Shown here one piece after another: positions 7,774-30,171 of a stretch of DNA of 45,563 nt (position 1 is the first letter of the stretch; each line of letters starts with the position of its first letter). The position numbers were made by a program, and so were the translations under genes. Source of the DNA: Methyloceanibacter sp. (GTDB taxonomy: Bacteria; Pseudomonadota; Alphaproteobacteria; Rhizobiales; Methyloligellaceae); contig DASQLK010000088.1 in assembly GCA_035630055.1 (NCBI GenBank), positions 1-45,563 on the forward strand, given 5' to 3'. The notes under the pieces were generated by a model that was not told where the DNA came from, made no database searches, and worked only from the letters and a program-made list of their open reading frames with translations.

Positions 7774-7787
7774 TGGCTGGGGCGGCA
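7774..7787. repeat. att core, left junction (duplicated 3' end of tRNA-Gln)
   Basis: TGGCTGGGGCGGCA, identical to 30083-30096 (reverse complement of the last 14 nt of the tRNA including CCA). Confidence 0.88.
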
Positions 7788-7900
7788 CCCGTCCGCCTAA
7801 ACCTATTCAACGCCTATGACATCACAAACGCCGATTCACGGCAAGCCGCACACGATGAGTGTACGCCCAAGTCGCGCCCGCGTGGGCCGGGGGGCCGGCG

Positions 7901-8350
7901 ATGACCGGGTTCGGATATGGGAAGCGCGAAGCGCCCTTCTCTTTGCGGCTATCCTTCGAAGAGAAGGTGAAGTTGCAGAGGGCGGCGGGTGGCCTGCCAC
8001 TATCGTCCTATATCAAATCCCTGCTGTTTGCGGATGAGCCTGCGGCCTATCGCCCGAGGCAGAGAGCGCCGATCAAGGATCATAAGGCGCTGGCCGAAGT
8101 GCTGGCCTGCCTCGGCGCTAGCCGCATTGCCAATAATCTCAACCAACTCGCCAAGGCTGCCAATTCTGGAAGCCTCTATGTCGAGTTTGAGACGAAGGCG
8201 CGGCTGAACGCTGCCTGCGATGATGTGCGCGTGATGCGCCAACTGCTTATGGTCGCCCTCGGCATGCCCGTCGATGGCGAGGCAGCAGGGAAGCAATCCA
8301 CCTCGCAAAGCTTCGCCCGCGCGGTAGGGCCGCCAAGGCCGCAGCCGTGA
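7901..8350 (+). CDS. mobC: MobC-like relaxosome accessory protein
   Basis: N-terminal RHH-like PFSLRLSFEEK...LSSYIK and LGASRIANNLNQLAKAAN MobC motif; stop overlaps relaxase start (GTGA). ATG at 7901 chosen as start. Confidence 0.82.
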   Translation: MTGFGYGKREAPFSLRLSFEEKVKLQRAAGGLPLSSYIKSLLFADEPAAYRPRQRAPIKDHKALAEVLACLGASRIANNLNQLAKAANSGSLYVEFETKARLNAACDDVRVMRQLLMVALGMPVDGEAAGKQSTSQSFARAVGPPRPQP

Positions 8351-9627
8351 TATTAAAAGCCTCTCAACGCGCCGGGGCCGGAGCGCTCGCGGCGCACCTC
8401 CTTAATGAGCGGGATAACGAACACGTCCGCGTGCACGAATTGCGCGGCTTCGTGGCCGACGATCTGGGCGGCGCGCTGCGCGAGGCCCAAGCCATCGCCA
8501 AGGGCACGAAGTGCAGGCAGTTCATGTTCTCGCTGAGCCTCAACCCCCCGCAAGGCGCTGCGGTCGGCGAAGCGGATTTCGAGAAGGCGGCGGACCGGGC
8601 CGAACGGGCGCTCGGCCTAGAGGGGCTGCCGCGCGCCCTCGTCATCCATGAAAAAGAGGGGCGCATGCACGCGCATGTCGTGTGGTCGCGGATCGATGCC
8701 GGATCGATGACGGCGATCAACCTGTCTCACTTCAAACGCAAGCTGTCGGCGCTCTCGCGCGATCTGTTCCTCGAACATGGCTGGTCACTGCCCGATGGGC
8801 TGAAAATGGGCGGCGGCAAAAGTCCCCTGAATTTCACGCTGGCGGAATGGCAACAGGCCAAACGCTTGGGTCGCGATCCGCGCGAGATCAAAACCGTCTT
8901 CCGGGAAGCATGGGAGCGATCCGACACGCTCGCTTCGCTCGGCAACGCCCTCGCGGAGCGGGGCTATTTCTTGGCTGGAGGCAAACGCGGCTTTGTCGCC
9001 GTCGATACGGATGGGGTGATTTACAGCCTCGCCAAATGGGCGGGGATCAAGGTGCGCGAAGCGCGCGCCAAGCACGGCGAAGCCGCTACCCTTCCAAATG
9101 TCGCAGACGTTCAAGCCACGGTCGCAAAGCTGGTCAGCGCCAAGCTGAAAGCCTTCGCTGCCGACACCAAGGTGAAGCACGAAAAGCAGGTATCGCCGCT
9201 GCAAGGCGAAATCCGGCAGATGCAAAACGCCCACAAGGCGGAGCGCGAACTGCTTCTGAAAAGGCAATCCGAACGCTGGCAGGCGGAGACGCAGGAACGG
9301 GCCGAACGCATGCGCGCCGGGCTGCGCGGATTGTGGGACAATATCACCGGACGGGCGCGCGCCATAAGAGCGATCAACGAGGCGGAAGCCATAAAGGGAG
9401 TGCGCCGCGACCGCGCGCAGCGGGACGCGCTCGTTCTCGCGCAGCTGAAAGACCGCGCGCCCTTGCAAGCGAGAGTGCAGTCGCTGCGCGCCCGGCATGC
9501 TCAAGAACGCAAAGCGCTCGCCCAAGAGATCGTGCGCCACATGCGCGCGCGTGTCGCGAGGCTCGACGCCGAACCGCCTTCCCTCTCGCGCCGCCCGCGC
9601 CGGCGCGACCGCGCTCTCGAACGATAG
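8347..9627 (+). CDS. Relaxase / mobilisation nuclease (MOBP/VirD2-like)
   Basis: MILKASQR start, SLSLNPP, HEKEGRMHAHVVWSR (His triad/HUH), C-terminal coiled coil. Confidence 0.88.
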   Translation: MILKASQRAGAGALAAHLLNERDNEHVRVHELRGFVADDLGGALREAQAIAKGTKCRQFMFSLSLNPPQGAAVGEADFEKAADRAERALGLEGLPRALVIHEKEGRMHAHVVWSRIDAGSMTAINLSHFKRKLSALSRDLFLEHGWSLPDGLKMGGGKSPLNFTLAEWQQAKRLGRDPREIKTVFREAWERSDTLASLGNALAERGYFLAGGKRGFVAVDTDGVIYSLAKWAGIKVREARAKHGEAATLPNVADVQATVAKLVSAKLKAFAADTKVKHEKQVSPLQGEIRQMQNAHKAERELLLKRQSERWQAETQERAERMRAGLRGLWDNITGRARAIRAINEAEAIKGVRRDRAQRDALVLAQLKDRAPLQARVQSLRARHAQERKALAQEIVRHMRARVARLDAEPPSLSRRPRRRDRALER

Positions 9628-9633
9628 GAGAAA

Positions 9634-11133
9634 ATGATGCGTCTCAAACCGCATTTGCCGCCGACGGAATACGATTTCCCGCGCGGCGAGGGTCTGTCCT
9701 CGATCCCCGCGACGGGGGACCGCAACAAGCCGCAATCGGCGATCTGGTGGACAAAGGCTCAGGTGCAAAGCGAGAGGCGACTCGCCTTCGAGCCGGGCAT
9801 GATCTTCCTCGGCCGTCTCGATCAAAAAATGATCGGGCTGCGCGACAATCGCCATGTCGTGACGATCGCCGGAAGCCGGGGCGGCAAGTCCGCCTGCCTG
9901 CTGATCCCCAACCTCTTGCTCTATCCAGGCTCCGTTCTCGTTATAGACCCGAAAGGCGAACTCGCGCGGGAAACCGCTGCCCATCGCCGCGAGGCGCTGG
10001 GGCAGGACGTCCATGTGCTCGATCCTTGGCGCGTCAGCGGCATTGATGACGGATTGCTCTCAACCTTCGATCCGATCGCCGAACTGCATGACGATCCGGC
10101 CAATCTCATCGACAATGCCGATCTCATGGCCGAGGCGCTGATCGTCGCCAACGCCAAGGATCCGCACTGGACGGACGCGGCGCGGGCGCTGCTGCGCGCG
10201 CTCATTTTGTATCTCGCGCTCGATCCGGCAGACTCCGGCGGCTCGCTCGCTGATCTGCCGCGGATCATCGCGCGCATCGCGTCAGAGCAAGGTTCTGACG
10301 CCGAAGATGGGCTGCTCCGCCAACTCGCCGCGTGGCGCGACGAGGACGAGCAACGCGATGAAGCGCTCGCCGTCATCCGCAACCAAGCCGAAGTCATTCT
10401 CGGCGCGAATGACAAGGAAATGGCCTCGATCATCTCGACGGCGCGGACGCAGCTTGTCTGTCTCGAAAGCCCGGCGCTGGCTCGCAATCTCGGCCTGTCG
10501 CTGCTCCGCCTGTCCCATCTCAAGGCGGGGCCGACGACGATCTATCTTTGCCTGCCCGCCGCGCGGCTCGCCACGCATGGCAGGTGGCTGCGCCTTATCG
10601 TCTCGCTCGCCATGGCGGCGCTGGAGCGCGCCGAAACGCGCGAGCATAGCGAGCCGGTCCTGTTCATTCTCGAGGAGTTCGCGGCGCTCGGCTACATGCG
10701 CGCGCTCGAACAGGCCGTGGCCTACATGGCGGGCTATGGCGTCAAGCTGTGGGCGGTCCTGCAAGACCTCACGCAGCTGAAGCGCCATTACAAGGAAGGC
10801 TGGGAAACCTTCCTCGGCAATGCCGGGATCATCCAAGCCTTCAGCGTTTGCGACCTCACCACCTGCGAATATCTGTCAAAGCGCCTCGGCGAGACGACGT
10901 TCCAGATTACCAACAAGATCGATGTCGGCTCGGACCAGGCGCGCAGCGGCGATCTGGGCCTGCGGCGCGAGTTCAAGACCGCGCCGCTGCTCACCCCTGA
11001 CGAGATCGCGCGCGCCTTCGCGCGCAAAAGCGACGAGCGCGGCGCCACGCGCGGCGGTGCAACCCTCGTGCTGGTGGCTGGCGCTCATCCCTTCGCCGTC
11101 GACCGCGTGTTTCACAAGGAGTTGGAGTCATGA
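9634..11133 (+). CDS. Type IV coupling protein (VirD4/TraG-like)
   Basis: Walker A AGSRGGKS, LIPNLL, VIDPKGEL, Walker B LFILEEF, LQDLTQLK..Y, LLTPDEI. Confidence 0.9.
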   Translation: MMRLKPHLPPTEYDFPRGEGLSSIPATGDRNKPQSAIWWTKAQVQSERRLAFEPGMIFLGRLDQKMIGLRDNRHVVTIAGSRGGKSACLLIPNLLLYPGSVLVIDPKGELARETAAHRREALGQDVHVLDPWRVSGIDDGLLSTFDPIAELHDDPANLIDNADLMAEALIVANAKDPHWTDAARALLRALILYLALDPADSGGSLADLPRIIARIASEQGSDAEDGLLRQLAAWRDEDEQRDEALAVIRNQAEVILGANDKEMASIISTARTQLVCLESPALARNLGLSLLRLSHLKAGPTTIYLCLPAARLATHGRWLRLIVSLAMAALERAETREHSEPVLFILEEFAALGYMRALEQAVAYMAGYGVKLWAVLQDLTQLKRHYKEGWETFLGNAGIIQAFSVCDLTTCEYLSKRLGETTFQITNKIDVGSDQARSGDLGLRREFKTAPLLTPDEIARAFARKSDERGATRGGATLVLVAGAHPFAVDRVFHKELES

Positions 11134-14431: not shown

Positions 14432-14656
14432 GTGAAAGCCGATCCCGATCTAATCGCCCTCGGGCGGGAAGTGCGCCGACTGCGCAAAGAGCGCGGTCTG
14501 AGCCAGGAAGCGCTGGCCGATCTCGCCGGCCTGCACACGAATTACGTGGGCGGGATTGAGCGCGGCGAACGCAACGTCGGCGTCAAAGCGCTGCTAGCGT
14601 TGGCACGCGGCTTGGACGTTCGGCCCGCCGTGTTGTTCGTCGGCTATACAAGCTGA
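14432..14656 (+). CDS. XRE-family HTH regulator (C-protein-like)
   Basis: LGREVRRLRKERGLSQEALADLAGLHTNYVGGIERGERNV. Confidence 0.92.
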   Translation: MKADPDLIALGREVRRLRKERGLSQEALADLAGLHTNYVGGIERGERNVGVKALLALARGLDVRPAVLFVGYTS

Positions 14657-15468
14657 ATCTCCACTTGCACCCATTCGCCGCTCCCTACGGCAGTCGGGAT
14701 ATGTAAGGCGATCTCGTCGACTGTGAAAACGGTCAGGGATTTGGAGGGGAATTTCCAAACGTGAAAGCGGTAAGAATCGCTGAATTTCAGAGCGATTGCC
14801 CATTCGCCACGGGTGAGAAACATCCGGGGCGCTTTGTCGGTGGTAGCTTTCACCTCGATGAGCTGGTTTATGGGACCGAACTCAGAAGGAGCAAAAGACA
14901 GGACATCGTATCCAGCCGAGTTGTCTTCGATGGCGATCCACCTAGGCTGTAGCTCCACTCCAAGCTTGGTCAGCCGTTCGCGTTCACGATCGAGGGTGAG
15001 AAGTTCAGCTTCGCGCCCTTTGGCGCTTCGAACGTCGTCTTCAAGCGCTCGGAATTGCGAAGCGAAGCGGTACCACCAATCGACGACGGACGGGTCCGGC
15101 GGGCTGTCCATCAAACCCGCGCTGCGGAAAGTTTGCACCTCGTCGGTGCTTAGGCCGTTGGCGACCAGCTGGCGGCCCGAGGGAAAGAGACGGCACCACC
15201 AAGGCTGTCTCGTTTCGATCAAGTGAGTGAGCGCTGCGCGAATTCCAAGCCTGGCGTCCGTGAAAACGATGTGCGCCGGAAGAATTTCAAATAGCTTCAG
15301 TGCCGTTGCAAAATCGGCAGCCGCATAATCCGAGTCTGAGCGGTGTAATGCTTCTGCTGCCTCCTCAGGTGAAGCCTCAGGATGTTGTAGGAGATAGCGC
15401 TTAATCCCGAGCAGGGGCGTGAATGCGCTCATGCGAAAGAGTCGGATTTCCTCTTGACCCGCACTCAC
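14644..15468 (-). CDS. DUF3883 / NO VEIN C-terminal PD-(D/E)xK nuclease domain protein
   Basis: GREAE...ERERL, AGYDVLSF, LIEVKAT, FLTRGEW; GTGA overlap with SNF2 gene. Confidence 0.85.
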   Translation of the reverse strand: MSAGQEEIRLFRMSAFTPLLGIKRYLLQHPEASPEEAAEALHRSDSDYAAADFATALKLFEILPAHIVFTDARLGIRAALTHLIETRQPWWCRLFPSGRQLVANGLSTDEVQTFRSAGLMDSPPDPSVVDWWYRFASQFRALEDDVRSAKGREAELLTLDRERERLTKLGVELQPRWIAIEDNSAGYDVLSFAPSEFGPINQLIEVKATTDKAPRMFLTRGEWAIALKFSDSYRFHVWKFPSKSLTVFTVDEIALHIPTAVGSGEWVQVEIQLV

Positions 15469-17372
15469 TCCATTTCCTCATCGGGATAGGTGCCGCGCCC
15501 CTCAAGCGCTTCGATAAGATCCTTCACGTCCTCCGGACTGATGTCCCAGGCGATAGGGTCCTCCGAGTTTTCTTCGTCATAGGCGATTTCGTGCAGATCC
15601 GGATCGTCCAGCAAAATCTGCAACGCGCGTAGCTTTTGCCGCAGTCGATGGCTGACAGAATGGTCGATGCACCCCAGCCCCATTGGCGCGAGTGTCCGAT
15701 ATATATGAATGTTAGTCTCGACGCCTTTCGGCAGACCAAGGCGGTGGATGCGATCGATCGATTGCAGATAGTGCGTCGTGACGTAGCTTCGGTCCAAATA
15801 GATCGCGTCGTGGCAAATCTTGTGTAAGCTGATGCCTTCGCCGGCTGCAGCCGGGTTCGCGATCATCACCTTACAGGCCGGATCATTGTGGAATCGCCTG
15901 ATGCGCCCTTCGCGCGTGATAGGGTCGGTCGGCTCTCCCGTGGGGACCGCTCCATACAGGGAGACTGGATTAAGATCGGCTAGGAGAAACTCCATCTGGT
16001 GGATGGTGTCGGTGAAAATCGTCCAAATGACCGACTTGCTGTCTTGCTTGGCGAGTGCCCGGGCGTGGTCCGCAACAGCCCGCATTTTGGTAGATGGACC
16101 TTCGCGAACGACCTCATCCAGAATGGCCGAGTCCAGCATGATGGACTCGTCGGCGATGGCTCGTAAGGCAAGAAGAGGATTGGCCGAAAGCTGCAAGAGC
16201 CGCATGACGGAGCGGCGCGCGGCGGGCGCGTCAAATCGGCCGTCGAGTGAAAGGGAACTCACCTGCCTGAGAAACTCGTTCTTGACGATGCCGTATAGAG
16301 CCATTTGGCCGGGCGCCATCGGAACGTCGAGAAAGTGTCTCCGAGGTTTTGGCAGCCCCAAGTCTTGCTTTGTAGTGCGTACATAGAGTTGGCCGAGCAC
16401 CTGCCGCGGCGGATCACCGCGCGCGATTTGCAAACCAAGCCCAACGCCAGGCCAAAGGAAATCGAGTTGCGACTGAATGTCGGAGGGCGCTTGCGGCATA
16501 GGCGTGCCGGTCAAAATATCGCGCCTGATAGGAAGCGGCGCCATGTTAAGGAGCAGCGCCCCGCGCTGTGACCCGAACCCCGCCTTCATTCTATGGGCTT
16601 CGTCCAATACGAGATGGACTTGGTTCTGAGCGATAAATTGAGTCACAACCTCGGGGCGCTGGATCATCATGTCATAGCTGAGCACCAAACGAGTGCATCC
16701 AGCATCGACGGCTTTCTGCAGTCCTTCGCTCCCGCTGGTCACGATCGTAAATGGTTCAGCGTTCCCGTTCGGAGCATCCAATTCGACGCATTCCTCTACA
16801 ACTTCCCGCCAAGCCGGGAATGAAGCTTTCGGTCCGATGACCAGCAATATCTGGCCGGGCTTGCGCGTAAGGATATGAAGTGCGAGCGTGACGGTTGTCT
16901 TGCCCGCGCCCGGGACTGAGAAATTTGCTCCGTTCTCCAACGACAGCAATCGCTGGAGATCGCGGGTCTGGAACTCCTCAAGCTTGCGCCTTGTGAAGCC
17001 TTCCTGCTTGAGCCGCTCCTCGATCTCTTCTGCTGAAATCGCGAGTTGGAGCGAGCCTTTAGCGGCTTGGACCTTTTTGAATTGGACGACGAAGGCCGCA
17101 AGCCGGCTCTTGGCCTCCTCGTCGCGAGCGGCAAAACGGAAGTTGAGGGCTTTCTGTTGGCTAGCAAATTGGCCGATAATTGTGAGGGCTCCAGCCCAAG
17201 TGAGTTCGAGGGATTGCGGCCCTGAATCATATTCGAGCCCAAGATCCAAAACGGCTTGCTGCATCCTCTCCCAGATGGATGTGGTCGGGTCGCCTTCCTT
17301 GACGAACCTTCCCGTCAAGCGCGAGGGGGTGAAGTGGATGCCGATCGTGACCGGACTCGCGTCCATCGTCAT
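15465..17372 (-). CDS. SNF2-family helicase/ATPase
   Basis: VPGAGKT, LDEAH, LTGTP, NPAAAGEGISL, QSIDRIHRLG. Confidence 0.92.
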   Translation of the reverse strand: MTMDASPVTIGIHFTPSRLTGRFVKEGDPTTSIWERMQQAVLDLGLEYDSGPQSLELTWAGALTIIGQFASQQKALNFRFAARDEEAKSRLAAFVVQFKKVQAAKGSLQLAISAEEIEERLKQEGFTRRKLEEFQTRDLQRLLSLENGANFSVPGAGKTTVTLALHILTRKPGQILLVIGPKASFPAWREVVEECVELDAPNGNAEPFTIVTSGSEGLQKAVDAGCTRLVLSYDMMIQRPEVVTQFIAQNQVHLVLDEAHRMKAGFGSQRGALLLNMAPLPIRRDILTGTPMPQAPSDIQSQLDFLWPGVGLGLQIARGDPPRQVLGQLYVRTTKQDLGLPKPRRHFLDVPMAPGQMALYGIVKNEFLRQVSSLSLDGRFDAPAARRSVMRLLQLSANPLLALRAIADESIMLDSAILDEVVREGPSTKMRAVADHARALAKQDSKSVIWTIFTDTIHQMEFLLADLNPVSLYGAVPTGEPTDPITREGRIRRFHNDPACKVMIANPAAAGEGISLHKICHDAIYLDRSYVTTHYLQSIDRIHRLGLPKGVETNIHIYRTLAPMGLGCIDHSVSHRLRQKLRALQILLDDPDLHEIAYDEENSEDPIAWDISPEDVKDLIEALEGRGTYPDEEME

Positions 17373-18709
17373 TTCTCGGTCGTGGTCGACTGACCGCCTC
17401 CGGCCTTGATCTCCTCAAGTTTGGTCCTGAGTTCCTGAGCCCGGTGCAGAATCTCCTCAAGCTGTTTGAGAATACTGTCGTGCGTTTTGGGGTCCGCGGT
17501 GCTGAAATCGATCTCTGTCAATCGCACATTGGCGTCCTGCGCAGCGCGCAAGGCAGCCTTGCCCTGCGCGCTGGCCTGCCCCGTATCTAGCACGGTCTGA
17601 CAAACGGCGCGCAGTTCGTCGAACACCTCGTCGCGCCGAGACTCATCTTCGAACAATGAAATGACCGGCTCGAATGAATCGCCGGAAGCCTCGTCGCCCA
17701 AATCGATTTCGAGGCCGTCATCCGCGCCGCCTTCGTCGGCACCGACAGTTTCCTCAACCTCGAGCCGGTCCGCTAGCTGAGCCAGGACATGCTCGGCCTT
17801 CTCGCCCAGGACCTTGTTAAACGCGTATATCCTCGTGCCCAAACTGTCGCGGTTATCGAAAAGCATCCACGCCATCCGCAAATTTGCCTCCAGGAGCGGC
17901 CCGCTTTTTCCTTTCAAGCGGCCCACCAAATCTGAGAAAAATTGCTCGCCGCCTTTCTCCACTAGCCTGTAATCGCCTGGCGCCTTTCTCCAATCTCGCA
18001 GATAAATCTCGGCGTAATTCAGTGCGCTGATCATCTTCCTAATTTCCGGAACGGACTTACGACGGACCTCCGCGATGTCCTTTTCGGTCTTGCTCTTCTG
18101 AGCAAGCTGGCGGCGGATTTTCAGGGTTTCGTTGATCCAGCTATACGGCAGCTTTGTCTCCGGTCGCTCCTGCAGCCTCGTCTCGATATCATCGATCTGA
18201 TCTTCAGTCAGAGGCGGGAGGACCATGCATTCGACATCCCCGAATGTCGGGAATTCGGACTTGCGATCGCCGTAGAGCATCCTCATCGCCGCAAGGCGTC
18301 GGTTGCCGTCGATAACGACGCCGGCGGGGGTGATCAGGAGGGGTTTGGTCTGCTTAGCGCGCTCCAGTTCCTCCAAAATCGATGCGATGGATCCTGGGTT
18401 CTCTCGGGCAAACTGGACCAGGATCGCGTGCTGAGTTTGCTGGGCTTCCTCGTTGTCCTGTCCTGCCGAAAAATAGTCGGCGTCACGCTTGTTTTCAGCG
18501 ATATGCGCAAGCTGCTCAGTTTGAGTTCGTGCATTCGCCATCCGGTAGACCGGGACGTCGATAGGCAGCTTGATTACGGGCAGCAACGTCCTCTGGCTTT
18601 CGTACACGTCAAATGTGGGCTGCTCCCCGCCGACCGGGTTCTGACACAGCGCTGCGATCATGTCTTTCCGCTCGTGGGCGGGTCTCACGCAAACTTCAAA
18701 CGCACTCAT
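17369..18709 (-). CDS. ParB/Srx N-terminal domain protein
   Basis: QTKPLLITPAGVVIDGNRRLAAM (GxxR motif) followed by HTH-like segment and acidic helical C-terminus. Confidence 0.82.
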   Translation of the reverse strand: MSAFEVCVRPAHERKDMIAALCQNPVGGEQPTFDVYESQRTLLPVIKLPIDVPVYRMANARTQTEQLAHIAENKRDADYFSAGQDNEEAQQTQHAILVQFARENPGSIASILEELERAKQTKPLLITPAGVVIDGNRRLAAMRMLYGDRKSEFPTFGDVECMVLPPLTEDQIDDIETRLQERPETKLPYSWINETLKIRRQLAQKSKTEKDIAEVRRKSVPEIRKMISALNYAEIYLRDWRKAPGDYRLVEKGGEQFFSDLVGRLKGKSGPLLEANLRMAWMLFDNRDSLGTRIYAFNKVLGEKAEHVLAQLADRLEVEETVGADEGGADDGLEIDLGDEASGDSFEPVISLFEDESRRDEVFDELRAVCQTVLDTGQASAQGKAALRAAQDANVRLTEIDFSTADPKTHDSILKQLEEILHRAQELRTKLEEIKAGGGQSTTTEK

Positions 18710-18717
18710 TTTGCCCC

Positions 18718-19179
18718 CTATTCAAATCCCACGACCAAGAGAGGGAACGTAATGATGCGGTCGAACAGCTGGACCTCGTTCCAAACTCTCTCGACATTCG
18801 CGACATTCGACGCGATCAGGGAACTCGCGGATTTTGTAGGAACCGCAAGCGCCGCCGCCTCGATTTTTCCCTGCCCATACAGATATTGAAATTTGAGCAA
18901 GTCATACATTGCTCGGCTAATATTTCCGGTTTGGACCTGGAAGGCGAGATCGCGATATCGGCCAGTGACGGTGAGGTCGTAGTTGGGATCGATCCTCACG
19001 GAGTGCGCCCAGCCCGCTTGCGTCAACTCATGTTCAAGATGATCGCGAATGTTGCCGGTGCATTTAGGCCCGACCGGAATGTTCGGAGCCTCAAAAAGGT
19101 CGGTCAGCCATTCCGTGAGTTCGCGCCTTTCCCATTCGGCATCGCCATTGTGAAGGGAATAGGCGCCAGCAAACTTCAT
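18718..19179 (-). CDS. BglII/BstYI-fold restriction endonuclease-like protein, probably catalytically degenerate
   Basis: L..AGW, xVQTGN, YDLLKFQYLY...IEAAALAVPT, NVANVE, PLLVVGF fit the family layout; the D...ExQ motif reads T...QVQ. Confidence 0.7.
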   Translation of the reverse strand: MKFAGAYSLHNGDAEWERRELTEWLTDLFEAPNIPVGPKCTGNIRDHLEHELTQAGWAHSVRIDPNYDLTVTGRYRDLAFQVQTGNISRAMYDLLKFQYLYGQGKIEAAALAVPTKSASSLIASNVANVERVWNEVQLFDRIITFPLLVVGFE

Positions 19180-20033
19180 TGCTCATCCTTCAGGGGTGGT
19201 TGATAAATTGGTTTGTTCATGGGCCGCGTCCTTAGAACACCTTCTTCAAGGTCCGTGACGCGCTCAAGGGCCACATCCACATATTCCTGCATAATATCGC
19301 ACCCGTATGCATGTCGACCATTCTTGAGAGCCGCGATCGCAGAGGATCCCACTCCCATGTACGGATCCAAAACACTGTCCCCCTTGTCCGTGAGCGCTAA
19401 CACGAGGCGTTCGACTAAGCCGACAGGAAATTGGCACGGATGTGCGGTTTTCTCAACATGGTTGGCTTTGACGTTGGGAATCTCCCACACGTCGCCCGGA
19501 TTCTTGCCGAGCGGATTGCTAGACACTTGTCCGCGCTTCGGGCCTTTGAAGTGCTTTTTCTCTGGGTACTTGGAAGGAACCCGCACGGGATCCAAATTGA
19601 ATGTGTAGTCGTCAGACTTGGTAAACCAGAGGATTGTTTCATGCCGTCCGGACAGTCTGCGTTGGCAGTGCAGCCCGTGTCCGAACGTCCATATGATCCT
19701 GTTACGCAGCTTCAGGCCATGGTTCTTGAATAGTGGATACAGCAAGATGTCGAGCGGGAACACCTCGCCATCATCGATGTGGTTGCCGACTTGCCAGCAG
19801 ATCGAGCCCTTCGGATGGAGCAATCGGGCCGCCTCAGCGATCGTCGCGACCTGGTGCTCAATGTACAGATCGTTGCAAGTCCGGCGCTCGTAGGCCTTGC
19901 CGATGTTGTAAGGCGGGGAGGTGACAATCAGCTTCATGCTTCCCTTCCTCAGGGATCGCATGAATTCGATGTTGTCCTTGCACTCGATTTTGACGTTGAG
20001 CGCCCGTGAAAAAGGGAGGATGTTTCCATCCAT
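19176..20033 (-). CDS. Beta-class amino DNA methyltransferase (likely N4-cytosine)
   Basis: Motif IV TSPPYN precedes motif I VLDPYMGVGSS; HPCQFP. Start could be 20033 or somewhat upstream. Confidence 0.92.
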   Translation of the reverse strand: MDGNILPFSRALNVKIECKDNIEFMRSLRKGSMKLIVTSPPYNIGKAYERRTCNDLYIEHQVATIAEAARLLHPKGSICWQVGNHIDDGEVFPLDILLYPLFKNHGLKLRNRIIWTFGHGLHCQRRLSGRHETILWFTKSDDYTFNLDPVRVPSKYPEKKHFKGPKRGQVSSNPLGKNPGDVWEIPNVKANHVEKTAHPCQFPVGLVERLVLALTDKGDSVLDPYMGVGSSAIAALKNGRHAYGCDIMQEYVDVALERVTDLEEGVLRTRPMNKPIYQPPLKDEQ

Positions 20034-21375: not shown

Positions 21376-21498
21376 TTTTCTCTCCTCAAGCGGAGCGACA
21401 TGGCGACTGACCTACGAGCGCACAAGGCCTGTGGAACTGACGACGCCGTCGTGAACGTGGGCTTAGAACTCGCGTCAGGGCCGTGCTATCGCACGGAC

Positions 21499-22146
21499 AT
21501 GTGCAACCTCTACACCACCAAGGCGAGTCCGGCCGAGATCGCCGCTCATTTCAGAGCGCAGCTTCTGCTGTCTTTCAACGCCGGCGAAGGCGAGGTCTAC
21601 CCGGGCGGCCAAGGCATGGTCGTGCGCGAAGAGGCAGGCGAACGCATCGTTCAATCCATGGCGTGGGGCTTCCCGCTTGCTCAGAAGAGCAAAAAGACCG
21701 GCCTGCCGATCAAGCCCAAGCCGGTGAACAACATCCGCGATCTGTCCAGCTTCATGTGGCGCTTCGTTGCGCCGCGGCGGGAGAACCGCTGCCTCATCCC
21801 CCTGACCGGCTTTTGCGAAGCCGAAGGCGAGAAAGGCGCGATGACCCGCACTTGGTTCGGGGTCCATGAGCGAACCATTTTCGCCTGGGCGGGAATGTGG
21901 AAGGTCAGCGACGAATGGGGGCCGGCCTATTCAGGGCTCATGACGGAGTGCAACGAAATCGTCCGGCCCGTCCACGATCGCATGCCCGTCCTGCTCCATG
22001 AAGAGGATTACGACCGCTGGCTGCATGGCAGCCTCGAGGACGTGATCGAATTTCAGGAGCGCTGCTTCCCAGACGAACTCACCGCGATCGAGCGAACGGC
22101 GGATCCGTGGTTTCGCCGCAAATCGACCGAGTTATCCAGCTTCTAA
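21499..22146 (+). CDS. SOS response-associated peptidase (SRAP/YedK/HMCES family)
   Basis: MCNLY start with catalytic Cys2, RCLIP.TGF.E, AGMW, VHDRMPVLL. Confidence 0.92.
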   Translation: MCNLYTTKASPAEIAAHFRAQLLLSFNAGEGEVYPGGQGMVVREEAGERIVQSMAWGFPLAQKSKKTGLPIKPKPVNNIRDLSSFMWRFVAPRRENRCLIPLTGFCEAEGEKGAMTRTWFGVHERTIFAWAGMWKVSDEWGPAYSGLMTECNEIVRPVHDRMPVLLHEEDYDRWLHGSLEDVIEFQERCFPDELTAIERTADPWFRRKSTELSSF

Positions 22147-22296: not shown

Positions 22297-24195
22297 ATGA
22301 GCGCTCAGGAACTGCTGCTCGGCGGCTTTGCGGCCACTGTCGCTCTCTCCCTCATAATTGGTGCATGGGGAAGACGCCGCAGCAGCCGATCGCTTATCAG
22401 CTTCTTTTGGGGCGATAACAATCTGAGCGTGGCCCAAGGCACCCATCTCAATCTTTCGACCAGCTTTGCGATCAACGGCGTTCTGTACTCGGCATGGCTT
22501 GGCTATGTGGCCGGATTGGCGTCATTACTGCCGCAGCTTTTTTGGTGTGCCGGATTTTTGTTCCTCTCGCGCTATTCAAAGCGGCTAGGGCACTTGTCAC
22601 GCACAGGCACCCTGCACGGCAACATCGGCTATGTCTTCGGCAAATCAGCCGCAGCGTGGGCGGCGCTTGCCTCCATCATCGGATTCACGCTCCTCTTCGG
22701 ATGGGAACTTTACATCGGGGCATCGATGTTTCGGGCCGTGATGCCCGAACAGTCACAGTCTGCCCAGTTAGAGACTATCCTCTATTTCTCGCTTGCGGCG
22801 ATCGCGGCCATTTACTGCATGTTGGGCGGCCTGCGTGGCAATCTCCAGGCAAACCAGTTCCAGAACTATCTCAGCGGTGGGGCTCTCGTGCTGGCGATCG
22901 TTTACCTCGGTTGGTTCGCCACCGGGACGCAGCATTTCTCGTGGAGCGACATGATTGACGTCTCGACCGTACCCGCTCTCGCGGTCGAACTGACGATTGC
23001 GGGGATGATAACGAACGCCGTCCTATTCCTAGTTTACCAGTTCTTGGACATGTCGGTGTGGCAGAACATCGCGTCCGTTGCTGATGAACGGAAAAAGCCA
23101 CGCAAGACCCTTTGGTTCTCGGCGTTCTGGATTCTCATTTTCCCGGGACTCACCGGCTCGATGCTCGGAATGGTGATGCGGTCGTTTGAGACGGGCGTAG
23201 ACCCGAACTCCATCGTTCCGCTTCTTCTAGAGCAGGTGATGGCGCAGCCGGTCATTTTCGTCGTGCTTGTGATGGGCTTCTTCGCGATGATGCTGTCGAC
23301 GGTGGACGGTCTCTTGCTCGCCGCCTGTCAAGCTGTGACGTGGGACTTGACGGATCGCAAATCGGTCCTGCAAATCTTGACGGCTCGCGGGACCCCCGAT
23401 CTTGACGAGGTGGACATCGCCGAACCGCAAGCGCTGGCGGCCAAACTCGCAGCGCAGGGTGACTCCGTGTCCAAATACCTTTGGGATCGTTTTCCGCCCG
23501 ATACCCAGGCAGCATTGAAGCAAACTGGGATCCTCTCGGATGGCGGGATGGCCAGGCTTCTCGCGGAAGCGCTTAACGCCGCTGTCAAAACGGAGGCGCT
23601 TTTTGAACCTGCTCGTTTCGAAGGCAAGACGCTCAGTTCCGAAGCCAAATCGCTCATCGATGCACCGACGAGCGAAGCCGATCGCCGGCTGTTGAACCGG
23701 TGGTTGCTTGAAGAAGCTTACCCGAATGAGATTGCCTACAATCAGTTCTCGAACACGCTGCGGCGCGAGCAAAGCTTCCGCGACCCGGACTGGTTTCTCC
23801 GGGAAGAGAAGCTTAAGTCGATCGAAGCCCGGACCCTCGATCGGGCGAAGTATGCAATATTCCTCATCGCCCTGATCGGAGGCGGTATCACACTGTACCT
23901 CGTGCGGCGCTTCGACGTCGATGCGTTCAATCTGCTTTATATTACCTATGTGGCGCAGATGTCATTGTTCCCCACCATCTGGGTCATCATCAACGGCGAA
24001 CGCAGGCTCCAGCCGCGCGGCGCAGCGAGCATCGGACTCGGCCTGCTCGCCGGATATGCTGCTGTGATTTACGGGCTGAACTCCGACTCATCCATCGCGC
24101 TATGGGCACCCACGATCGCCGTTGCGGTGGCTTGTGCCGTCTATTGGCCCTTCCGGCGAATATCCACAGAACCGGTCTCGGGGCCTGGCCAATGA
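22297..24195 (+). CDS. Sodium:solute symporter-like membrane protein with inserted soluble domain
   Basis: Many TM segments; YCMLGGLRG..AN.FQ and AMMLSTVDG.L SSS-like motifs; AAGGAGG RBS. Confidence 0.75.
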   Translation: MSAQELLLGGFAATVALSLIIGAWGRRRSSRSLISFFWGDNNLSVAQGTHLNLSTSFAINGVLYSAWLGYVAGLASLLPQLFWCAGFLFLSRYSKRLGHLSRTGTLHGNIGYVFGKSAAAWAALASIIGFTLLFGWELYIGASMFRAVMPEQSQSAQLETILYFSLAAIAAIYCMLGGLRGNLQANQFQNYLSGGALVLAIVYLGWFATGTQHFSWSDMIDVSTVPALAVELTIAGMITNAVLFLVYQFLDMSVWQNIASVADERKKPRKTLWFSAFWILIFPGLTGSMLGMVMRSFETGVDPNSIVPLLLEQVMAQPVIFVVLVMGFFAMMLSTVDGLLLAACQAVTWDLTDRKSVLQILTARGTPDLDEVDIAEPQALAAKLAAQGDSVSKYLWDRFPPDTQAALKQTGILSDGGMARLLAEALNAAVKTEALFEPARFEGKTLSSEAKSLIDAPTSEADRRLLNRWLLEEAYPNEIAYNQFSNTLRREQSFRDPDWFLREEKLKSIEARTLDRAKYAIFLIALIGGGITLYLVRRFDVDAFNLLYITYVAQMSLFPTIWVIINGERRLQPRGAASIGLGLLAGYAAVIYGLNSDSSIALWAPTIAVAVACAVYWPFRRISTEPVSGPGQ

Positions 24196-28344: not shown

Positions 28345-30171
28345 ATGAGGGCCATACTGTATGCCAGATACTCAGACAAAGAGAGACAAAACGAGAACAG
28401 CATTGAGCAGCAGCTGAGGCTTCTTCACGATCGTGCGGCACGCGAAGGATGGGAAGTCGTCGCCAGCTACGACGACAAAGGCATGACCGGGGCAAACCGC
28501 TTCCGGCCCGGAATCCAGCAGCTGATCGGCGCTATTCAGGGGCGCGAATTTGACATTCTCCTCACGGAATCGATCGACCGCTTGAGCCGCGACCAGGAGG
28601 ATATCGCGTTCATTCACAAGCGCTGCCGGCACAACGGCATTCAGATTGTCACGTTGTTGGAGGGCGAGATCACCGAGTTACACGTGGGCCTCAAGGGCAC
28701 CATGTCGGCGCTCTATCTGAAAGACCTAGCCCGCCGCACGCATCGCGGGCTTGAGCAGCGGGCCCTCGAAGGGGAAAGCACAGGGGGCAAAAGCTACGGG
28801 TATGACATCGAACCAAAGTTCGATTTGAAAAAGGGCCGCCGGGTCGGCGGGGAAATTACAATCAACCCCGAGGGGGCCGCGATTGTTCAGCGCATTTTCT
28901 TGGAATATCTGGGAGGTAAGTCGCCCCGAATGCTCGCTCACGAATTTAACGCTAGCGGCATTCCGGCGCAATCGGGCCGGGCCTGGACTGCCAGCACGAT
29001 CTACGGCAACCGAAGGCGGGGCACCGGGATCCTAAATAACGAACTGTATATCGGCCGGAAAATCTGGGGGAAGCAAAGCTTCTTCAAGGACCCCGATACT
29101 GGCAGAGAGACAGGACGCCTGAACGATGAGTCCCAGTGGATCCGCACTGAGGTTCCGCACCTGCGTATCATTTCCGATGAACTATGGTTCGCCGTCAAAG
29201 CTTATCAGGGCGAGTTGGATCGCAAGCCGACGGTCCGGGAAAAGAGGCGTCCAAAAAGGCTTTTTTCGTTCCTGCTTCGTTGCGGCAAATGTGATGGTGG
29301 CTTCTCAAAAATCGGGAAAGACCACTACGGCTGCTCAACGGCGCGGAACAAAGGGACGTGCGACAATCGCCTCACCATCAGCGAGCGAACGTTGGAGCAA
29401 GCCGTTCTCGGATCGCTTCAATCTCAGTTGATGCAACCGGAAGTGTGCGAGGTCTTTTGCGCTGCGTATACCGAGCGAGTGAACCAAAAATGTCGCGAGG
29501 ACCACGCGGCCCGGGATTCCAATTCGGCGGAACTGGCGCGAACCGAACACGCGATCGAAAAGTTGGTTCAAGCCCTCAAAAGTGGCGTCGATCCGACCTT
29601 GCTCAAGGATGAGATCAACAGCCTCCAGCAGCGCAAGATCACTCTTGAAGCCGCGCTGAACGATGCTCCACCTGCACCTGTTTTCGTGCATCCGAACATG
29701 GCCTCGCGGTTTCATGATGGCATTCAAAACCTCATCGCGCGCTTCAACGATCCGAAACACCGCCAAGGTTCTGCTGAGATGCTGCGGAGTCTGATTGAGA
29801 AAATTGTGCTCACCCCCAATGCGGAGAATCGCGCGCTAATCGTCAATCTGGAAGGTCGGCTGCGCGGGATTCTTGAATTGGCCGCTGGCCATACCGCGCA
29901 AGCCATGGGTGCAGCGGCCAGCACCCTTAGTGGAGTTGAGGCGAGGGAAATCGAGCAGGTCCAAGTGGTCGCGAGCGCAGAAATGGATAGAAATCAGCTT
30001 AGGGGCAGTCTCCCAGGGACTGATGGCTGGGGCACCTCTCTTTCATCAAAACCTGCGAGCGATGAAAATTCGCAGGTAGTGATGGCTGGGGCGGCAGGAT
30101 TCGAACCTGCGAATGGCGGCACCAAAAGCCGCTGCCTTACCACTTGGCGACGCCCCAGCATGAGCGCGTGA
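28345..30171 (+). CDS. Large serine recombinase (integrase)
   Basis: YARYS catalytic Ser, ESIDRLSR, GGKSYGY, GILNNELYIG, zinc ribbon CGKC...YGC...C, coiled coil. Last 29 codons are the att core, antisense tRNA and host DNA. Confidence 0.95.
   Translation: MRAILYARYSDKERQNENSIEQQLRLLHDRAAREGWEVVASYDDKGMTGANRFRPGIQQLIGAIQGREFDILLTESIDRLSRDQEDIAFIHKRCRHNGIQIVTLLEGEITELHVGLKGTMSALYLKDLARRTHRGLEQRALEGESTGGKSYGYDIEPKFDLKKGRRVGGEITINPEGAAIVQRIFLEYLGGKSPRMLAHEFNASGIPAQSGRAWTASTIYGNRRRGTGILNNELYIGRKIWGKQSFFKDPDTGRETGRLNDESQWIRTEVPHLRIISDELWFAVKAYQGELDRKPTVREKRRPKRLFSFLLRCGKCDGGFSKIGKDHYGCSTARNKGTCDNRLTISERTLEQAVLGSLQSQLMQPEVCEVFCAAYTERVNQKCREDHAARDSNSAELARTEHAIEKLVQALKSGVDPTLLKDEINSLQQRKITLEAALNDAPPAPVFVHPNMASRFHDGIQNLIARFNDPKHRQGSAEMLRSLIEKIVLTPNAENRALIVNLEGRLRGILELAAGHTAQAMGAAASTLSGVEAREIEQVQVVASAEMDRNQLRGSLPGTDGWGTSLSSKPASDENSQVVMAGAAGFEPANGGTKSRCLTTWRRPSMSA
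30083..30096. repeat. att core, right junction
   Basis: TGGCTGGGGCGGCA identical to 7774-7787. Confidence 0.88.
30083..30157 (-). tRNA. tRNA-Gln (anticodon TTG)
   Basis: TGGGGCGTCGCCAAGTGGTAAGGCAGCGGCTTTTGGTGCCGCCATTCGCAGGTTCGAATCCTGCCGCCCCAGCCA; cloverleaf, GTTCGAATC T-loop, encoded CCA. Confidence 0.97.

What the first reader, a model, noticed from the sequence alone, without database searches (positions are those of the whole stretch)
14644..20033. Candidate undescribed defence system: m4C MTase - dead BglII-fold - ParB-like - SNF2 ATPase - DUF3883 nuclease
Seen: five co-oriented genes joined by ATGA (19176-19179), an 8-bp gap, ATGA (17369-17372) and GTGA (15465-15468), carried as cargo on an IME. 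Known: each domain occurs in anti-phage systems, but this set does not match Type I-IV RM, BREX, DISARM, Dnd/Ssp or the DUF499/DUF1156 restriction-like system as I recall them. Inference: the MTase marks self, the BglII-fold protein reads unmethylated sites, the ParB-like protein acts as an NTP-gated clamp or switch, and the SNF2 motor delivers or activates a separate nuclease. This would be a Type II RM pair rebuilt into a motor-driven system.
Basis: partly seen in the sequence, partly recalled or inferred. Interest (0 to 1): 0.88.

Follow-up and report, generated by a model that had tools for sequence, protein, structure and literature searches.

The report
AbiR-related cassette with disarmed restriction enzyme
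A mobile five-gene cassette found in many bacterial groups pairs a DNA methylase with a restriction-enzyme look-alike that lacks its cutting residues and likely only reads the DNA site, probably directing a ParB-like clamp, a DNA motor and a separate nuclease against unmarked foreign DNA, which would also suggest how the old, unexplained phage-defence system AbiR tells self from non-self.

Summary
The five genes and their junctions are real, and sit on a 22-kb mobilizable element at tRNA-Gln. The order recurs in 69 of 74 assessable GTDB loci (nine phyla) and 41 of 49 loci of a distant clade. The BglII-like protein has the BstYI fold (Z 21) but lacks the catalytic Asp and Glu in 146 of 146 relatives. 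Methylase, ParB, SNF2 and NOV_C motifs are intact. The methylase groups with those of intact BstYI-type pairs, so the site is likely RGATCY. The ParB-SNF2 core is homologous to that of AbiR-like plasmid loci (AbiR itself not obtained), so this is a new variant of a known, unexplained kind. It is not AbiR: no PLD fusion, no sigma-like subunit, a different methylase. Two other lineages put a different dead restriction domain beside the same core, each near its matching methylase, which supports a swappable reader slot. Function is untested. Six paper searches found no description. This scan noted the cassette before on at least eight other genomes.

The parts
19176..20033 (-). Beta-class amino-methyltransferase (SPPY), 285 aa from ATG 20033 (the ORF is open to 20171); likely m4C at an RGATCY-like site
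   Evidence: PF01555. SPPY in 138 of 138 relatives. 69% and 66% identical to methylases beside intact BstYI orthologues. Tree.
18718..19179 (-). 153-aa BstYI/BglII-fold protein lacking the catalytic Asp and Glu (T72, Q81); predicted site reader
   Evidence: Model pLDDT 96.7. VIA Z 21.0 BstYI, 20.8 BglII. Asp at 72 in 0 of 146, Glu at 81 in 0 of 146. Q83, G85, N86, R89, D93, K96, R131, E135 invariant in 148.
17369..18709 (-). 446-aa ParB-like protein: N-terminal ParB/Srx domain, helical middle with a likely helix-turn-helix, long C-terminal helices; predicted NTP-gated clamp
   Evidence: Foldseek top hits ParB, Noc, KorB; highest query TM to 5K5D. G135-N-R-R138, E176, Q180 in 153 of 153. Full-length homology to AbiR-like ParBs.
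15465..17372 (-). 635-aa SNF2-family ATPase with no fused nuclease
   Evidence: PF00176 and PF00271. Walker A and DE[SA]H kept in 133 of 133. Related to AbiR-like PLD-SNF2 proteins, 253-275 bits.
14644..15468 (-). 274-aa stand-alone NOV_C (DUF3883) PD-(D/E)xK nuclease with an uncharacterised N-terminal half
   Evidence: PF13020. E155, D188, E205, K207, E222 in 130 of 130. N-terminal 150 aa had no named match.
7774..7787 (+). Left end of the carrier element: 14-bp repeat of the tRNA-Gln 3' end (likely att site)
7859..11133 (+). Mobilisation module of the carrier: MobC, MobA/VirD2-like relaxase, VirD4-type coupling protein
28345..30171 (+). Large serine recombinase of the carrier; its 3' end overlaps the tRNA gene on the other strand
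30083..30157 (-). tRNA-Gln(TTG), the likely insertion site; its 3' 14 bases are the right-hand repeat

Best explanation
This is a conserved, mobile five-gene cassette with an AbiR-related ParB-SNF2 core that likely acts as a methylation-gated restriction or abortive-infection system, in which the disarmed BstYI-like protein probably binds unmethylated RGATCY-like sites and the cutting is likely done by the separate NOV_C nuclease. Inferred, step by step: (1) the methylase marks host RGATCY-like sites, likely as m4C; (2) a reader dimer sits on unmarked sites of incoming DNA without cutting; (3) it loads or stalls the ParB-like protein, which would close round DNA as an NTP-gated clamp; (4) clamp-bound SNF2 moves along the DNA and licenses NOV_C to nick or cut away from the site; (5) phage or plasmid replication falls, and a host without the methylase would be poisoned, as reported for AbiR.
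For: Synteny: 69 of 74 and 41 of 49 assessable loci, down to 24% median ParB identity. Reader disarmed in 146 of 146 by more than one substitution (Q/H in one clade, C/G/V/A in the other), yet residues aligned with the DNA-facing loops of BamHI and BstYI are kept. Reader distances track the core (Spearman 0.72-0.79 in the near clade, 0.69-0.71 in the far clade). The slot has been filled three times by different dead restriction domains, each with its matching methylase nearby: (a) BstYI-like plus BstYI-pair methylase; (b) in four plasmid loci, a PDLC03501-family protein with DY..IELKG changed to [VI]Y..IIQKG, where the nearby Dcms in three loci are 58-64% identical to methylases beside motif-intact members; (c) in L193, a stand-alone Sau3AI C-terminal domain (E 4e-42 to 2REU), described as catalytically inactive in PMC5766183 (passages), whose Dcm is 57% identical to a Sau3AI-pair methylase. 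AbiR needs its methylase, is toxic without it and lowers phage DNA replication (PMC13064643, passages). NOV_C is a nickase needed for HmaA defence (PMC11232893, passages).
Against: A methylase directly precedes ParB with no reader in L077, L107, L112, L138, L106 and L114 (gaps 23-88 bp); L036 and L062 also lack it. RGATCY is depleted in the cassettes (O/E 0.50-0.72 by gene) but equally in flanking genes (0.61); only 37 of 76 loci were lower inside than outside. Lineage (b) is four related loci, the Kozakia one shows no methylase in the stretch fetched, and lineage (c) is one locus. ParB has Asn where canonical ParB has a catalytic Glu (recalled), so the nucleotide and the clamp behaviour are unproven. 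No DNA binding, cleavage or phage protection was measured.
Confidence: 0.6

Rival explanations
1. The core (ParB helix-turn-helix or the NOV_C N-terminal half) reads the site itself. The dead enzyme is an accessory: a decoy, inhibitor or repressor that tunes the core.
For: ParB proteins normally find their own loading site (recalled).
Against: Three different dead domains each match the local methylase family, which an unrelated accessory would not be expected to do.
Confidence: 0.2
2. A guard or addiction module. It senses loss of host methylation or phage anti-restriction proteins (for example DNA mimics caught by the dead enzyme) and kills the cell or stabilises the element, instead of cutting incoming DNA at sites.
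For: AbiR is classed as abortive infection and is toxic without its methylase. Related ParB-SNF2 pairs attach to many RM types: Type III (L200), Sau3AI (L201, L202), Type I plus McrBC (L195), an intact-looking BglII-family pair (L137). The cassette rides on mobile DNA and was found in 0 of 60 relatives.
Against: Most loci hold no second restriction enzyme within the cassette to guard.
Confidence: 0.14
3. The BglII-like protein is a real nuclease with a rearranged active site, and the other three genes form a separate back-up module.
For: Q83 and nearby R89, D93 and E135 are invariant. PD-(D/E)xK residues can migrate (stated in PMC11232893). I had no coordinates to measure distances.
Against: No acidic residue at 72 or 81 in 146 sequences; an acidic residue anywhere in 70-74 in only 6; D68 in only 39. 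Position 72 is often Phe. Motif-intact relatives are 190-203 aa with D..EVQ.
Confidence: 0.05

Closest known systems
AbiR of Lactococcus lactis pKR223 (AbiRa sigma70-like, AbiRb ParB-like, AbiRc nuclease-Snf2, plus M.LlaKR2I)
   Same: ParB-like gene coupled to an SNF2 gene, a nuclease and a cytosine methylase. The review superposes AbiRb on 5K5D, also my highest query TM. Plasmid loci that fit the AbiR description (L193, L194, L201, L202) hit the family ParB profile (88 and 54 bits for L193 and L194) and the SNF2 profile, and group outside this family in both trees.
   Different: Nuclease is a separate NOV_C, not an N-terminal PLD. No sigma70-like subunit. Methylase is a BstYI-pair SPPY enzyme, not a Sau3AI-type Dcm. 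A dead BstYI-fold gene is present. Identity is only 14-20% (ParB) and 23-26% (SNF2). AbiR's own sequence was not obtained.
BstYI / BglII / BamHI / OkrAI Type IIP restriction-modification pairs
   Same: Same enzyme fold (Z 21.0, 20.8, 15.6, 17.4). Methylase 66-69% identical to partners of BstYI orthologues, gene order M then R.
   Different: Catalytic Asp and Glu absent family-wide, protein about 50 aa shorter, three further coupled genes.
Hma / Type-1 BREX-related systems (HmaA SNF2-NOV_C fusion)
   Same: SNF2 plus NOV_C nuclease plus a methylase (PMC11232893 and PMC12839542, passages).
   Different: SNF2 and NOV_C are separate here. No DUF499 ATPase or DUF1156 methylase. ParB and a dead enzyme are present. 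No Hma model was hit.
DISARM (DrmD), Zorya I (ZorD), Dpd (DpdE)
   Same: Weak partial SNF2 hits only, E 1e-10 or worse.
   Different: None of their partner genes is hit; scores are far below family level.

Membership tests
AbiR | ParB-like subunit homologous to AbiRb | tested here: inconclusive
   Full-length homology to ParBs of AbiR-like loci and the same 5K5D match. True AbiRb not compared: record and original papers not held.
AbiR | SNF2 ATPase encoded right after ParB | tested here: met
AbiR | PLD-type nuclease fused N-terminal to SNF2 | tested here: not met
   635 aa with no PLD hit. AbiR-like proteins are about 860 aa with PLDc_2.
AbiR | Large sigma70-like subunit AbiRa | tested here: not met
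   No such ORF in or beside the cassette in the window.
AbiR | LlaKR2I methylase (Sau3AI-type m5C on GATC; type recalled) | tested here: not met
   The methylase is N4/N6 class with SPPY.
AbiR | Toxic without the methylase; lowers phage DNA replication | not testable with these tools
   Bench test
BstYI/BglII Type IIP RM | BamHI/BglII/BstYI fold | tested here: met
BstYI/BglII Type IIP RM | Catalytic D...E-x-Q (BstYI D119, E128, Q130; catalytic role recalled, numbering) | tested here: not met
   T72, Q81, Q83. Asp 0 of 146, Glu 0 of 146.
BstYI/BglII Type IIP RM | Adjacent cognate amino-methyltransferase | tested here: met
BstYI/BglII Type IIP RM | RGATCY specificity | tested here: inconclusive
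   Inferred from methylase kinship; site depletion was not cassette-specific.
Hma / Type-1 BR | NOV_C fused to SNF2; DUF499 ATPase; DUF1156 methylase | tested here: not met
   Separate genes in the loci; no such Pfam or PADLOC hits.
DISARM / Zorya I / Dpd | DrmABC, ZorABC or DpdA-type partner genes | tested here: not met
   PADLOC and NCBIfam scans of the cassette and 8-11 neighbouring proteins.
ParB CTPase clamps | ParB/Srx fold with an arginine-rich motif | tested here: met
   (GNRR in 153 of 153)
ParB CTPase clamps | CTP binding, clamp closure, sliding | not testable with these tools
   Bench test; Asn stands where canonical GERR has Glu (recalled).

The most novel reading that the evidence does not exclude
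A class of restriction system not yet recognised: one universal ParB-clamp / SNF2-motor / nuclease machine, addressed by a plug-in, catalytically dead Type II enzyme and its methylase. Specificity is reprogrammed by swapping that pair, as seen at least three times (dead BstYI, dead PDLC03501-family enzyme, solo Sau3AI effector domain). A ParB clamp would be loaded by a restriction-enzyme reader instead of parS. AbiR would be one branch of this class.
Probability: 0.4. Interest if true: 0.87.

Novelty: new variant of a known kind. Interest (0 to 1): 0.66.

Why it matters
A 2026 review says it remains unclear how AbiR's parts give phage resistance. This cassette shares its core, is widespread (212 relatives among GTDB candidates; 1,992 ParB clusters at 50% identity) and exposes a testable logic: a dead enzyme as address label, the methylase as self mark, ParB plus SNF2 as delivery. 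It would add a nucleotide-gated ParB clamp to restriction biology and give a modular, re-addressable nuclease. PADLOC 2.0 sees only its methylase, so it is probably uncounted in defence surveys and may be a hidden barrier to transformation in its hosts.

Tried and rejected
Site avoidance: RGATCY looked depleted in the cassettes (O/E 0.62 and 0.56), but flanking genes showed 0.61; dropped as evidence. Complex prediction of ParB 1-320 with two reader copies gave no answer (score 0.00); not evidence either way. Phages DC1 and BcepIL02 first looked like carriers of an orphan counter-defence methylase, but it has a motif-intact BstYI-like partner. D68 as a substitute catalytic Asp was rejected: outside the strand and in 39 of 146 only. 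The XRE gene at 14432-14656 as a controller was rejected: near 2 of 160 cassettes (the zero came from a mis-framed query). Repeat search showed no parS-like array among the largest repeats. The empty-site check was inconclusive: matches were only 63-69% identical and had no tRNA nearby. Viral scans with the middle ParB clades (A5, A6) returned few loci and none clearly of those clades, so their synteny is unsampled. In the methylase tree L186 was mis-framed and is ignored; the deep branching there is weak. Atlas search of the NOV_C N-terminus gave no named family. PDB sequence search with the ParB profile found nothing. AbiR record (accession recalled) and both original AbiR papers were not held; the review's supplements were not readable and might hold AbiR models. 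The single Lactococcus plasmid hit was a Type III-linked ParB-SNF2, not AbiR.

Full report
Observation. The window is one whole contig of an incomplete genome (G000:C88; 63% complete). Pfam names the methylase, SNF2 and NOV_C, and weakly the BglII-like protein. PADLOC 2.0 gives strong hits only to Type II methylase models, plus weak partial SNF2 and nuclease hits; the ParB-like protein hits nothing. NCBIfam gives no hit above cut-off. The cassette lies inside a 22-kb element with MobC, relaxase, coupling protein and a serine recombinase, bounded by tRNA-Gln and a 14-bp copy of its 3' end at 7774. An empty site was not demonstrated.

Conservation. A GTDB scan with the ParB alignment confirmed 212 relatives and returned the best 80. 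Of these, 74 had enough flank, and 69 had all five genes in order. By record titles these span nine phyla (Pseudomonadota, Spirochaetota, Acidobacteriota, Verrucomicrobiota, Planctomycetota, Binatia, Nitrospirota, Nitrospinota, Bacteroidota; phylum names assigned from my knowledge). A profile search found 1,992 ParB clusters at E up to 0.001. I took a distant clade among the best 150 (tree) into a metagenome scan (491 confirmed, best 80 kept): 41 of 49 assessable loci were complete and 31 were cut by contig ends. These tallies include a few near-duplicates, and both sets are the best hits, not random draws. The middle clades were not sampled.

The BglII-like protein. Its model (pLDDT 96.7) matches BstYI, BglII, OkrAI and BamHI at Z 21.0, 20.8, 17.4 and 15.6, with the next hit at 6.2. 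The profile alignment and the strand pair 70-75 / 78-82 put T72 at BstYI D119 and Q81 at E128 (that these are catalytic is recalled, and a paper search to confirm it failed). None of 146 aligned relatives has Asp at 72 or Glu at 81; the near clade has Gln or His, the far clade mostly Cys. Q83, G85, N86, R89, D93, K96, R131 and E135 are invariant and N125 nearly so; N86 and S124-N125 align with BamHI loops that I recall as contacting bases. The protein is strongly kept (median 55% identity in the near clade against 37% for ParB) and co-diverges with the core. This is the pattern of a binder that no longer cuts.

The other four. SPPY is kept in 138 of 138 methylases, Walker A and DE[SA]H in 133 of 133 SNF2s, GNRR, E176 and Q180 in 153 of 153 ParBs, and five nuclease residues in 130 of 130 NOV_C proteins. 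The ParB model's top Foldseek hits are ParB, Noc and KorB (best E 5e-4). The closest methylases outside the cassette family, on a Sphingobium plasmid and on phage DC1, lie beside 203-aa enzymes that match BstYI end to end (E 6e-90 and 4e-89), and they group with the near-clade methylases (FastTree support 0.94). Hence RGATCY is the likely site. m4C is inferred from SPPY (recalled rule); one BglII-family RGATCY enzyme has an m6A partner (PMC10734518, passages), so the base needs testing. Site avoidance did not help.

Variants. At least six loci have the methylase directly before ParB and no reader; eight carry a long SPPY or long m5C methylase instead; L137 has an intact-looking BglII-family pair beside the core. 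Four alphaproteobacterial plasmid loci put a different protein before ParB-SNF2-DUF3883. It belongs to REase model PDLC03501, but where motif-intact relatives read DY..IELKG it reads [VI]Y..IIQKG, and the Dcms near three of them are 58-64% identical to the methylases beside those intact relatives. A Lactiplantibacillus plasmid has Dcm, ParB, PLD-SNF2 and a stand-alone Sau3AI C-terminal domain, the inactive effector half (PMC5766183, passages), with a Sau3AI-pair-like Dcm. So three unrelated dead restriction domains sit beside a homologous core, each matched to the local methylase family.

AbiR. Earlier notes of this scan pointed to AbiR, and I tested that. The review PMC13064643 (passages) describes AbiR as sigma70-like + ParB-like + nuclease-Snf2, needing the LlaKR2I methylase, toxic without it, mechanism unclear. 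The window's SNF2 finds, after its own family, Firmicute plasmid loci of that make-up. Their ParBs hit the family profile, L193 over nearly its whole length (88 bits; L194 54, L195 38), and their SNF2s score 253-275 bits. ParB and SNF2 trees agree on three groups: AbiR-like; dead-PDLC03501 plus a Streptomyces locus; and this family (26 picked loci at most plus 13 plasmid loci, rooted on two distant sequences, no clade test, so no direction of descent is claimed). The cassette fails three AbiR features, so it works like AbiR but is not a member.

Mechanism and odds. Most likely (0.6): the methylase marks self, the dead enzyme binds unmarked sites, the ParB clamp and SNF2 carry the signal, NOV_C cuts. 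Rivals: the core reads the site itself (0.2), guard or addiction (0.14), cryptic nuclease activity (0.05). All functional steps are inferred.

Literature. Searches found no description of this gene set in the open library. I saw passages only of PMC3710099, PMC12839542, PMC11232893, PMC10853773, PMC6458302, PMC2441816, PMC10734518, PMC5766183 and PMC13064643; the passages shown treat other systems. Subscription papers, supplements and DefenseFinder models were not seen. This scan reported the same cassette on at least eight other genomes and the Sau3AI-half variant on others; these are not independent evidence.

Verdict. Real, widespread and unnamed in what I could search: a new variant of the AbiR kind with a plausible plug-in reader logic. 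Interest 0.66.

Noticed in passing
window 14432-14656 (+): 74-aa XRE helix-turn-helix gene converging on and overlapping the NOV_C 3' end; a relative lies within 1 kb of only 2 of 160 cassettes.
   Followed up: yes
window 22297-24195 (+): 632-aa hydrophobic ORF on the element that looks like a multi-pass transporter with a soluble insert, but has no Pfam, PADLOC or NCBIfam hit.
   Followed up: no
window 21400-22146 (+): SRAP (SOS-response-associated peptidase) gene on the same element, 1.4 kb from the methylase start.
   Followed up: no
window 28345-30171 (+): The recombinase frame runs through the whole tRNA-Gln gene on the other strand, so its C-terminus may change on excision.
   Followed up: no
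L184:2995-4543 (Burkholderia phage DC1): The phage carries a motif-intact BstYI-type methylase and enzyme pair between its terminase genes; BcepIL02 has the same methylase.
   Followed up: partly
L187:3950-6686, L190:3441-6239: The same methylase family sits directly before a roughly 600-aa DGQHR (DndB/DpdB-like) protein on rhizobial plasmids, a second methylase-plus-ParB-superfamily pairing.
   Followed up: no
L200:4002-12016; L195:290-12698: AbiR-like ParB-SNF2 pairs without a fused nuclease are coupled to a Type III RM (Lactococcus plasmid), or lie between a Type I RM, an 860-aa unknown and McrBC (Enterococcus lactis plasmid).
   Followed up: partly
L196:4316-17290, L197:6510-17221: Rhizobial plasmid clusters of SNF2, ParB-like genes, DGQHR, radical SAM, ATPases and a PIN protein; possibly another modification-linked system.
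   Followed up: no
L140, L154, L168; L080, L086, L094, L115, L149: Two families of unusually long methylases (531-551 aa m5C; 471-511 aa SPPY) with about 200 extra C-terminal residues replace the usual one.
   Followed up: partly
L006, L010, L017, L054, L071: The SNF2 gene is in two or more pieces in these genomes (decay or sequencing error).
   Followed up: no
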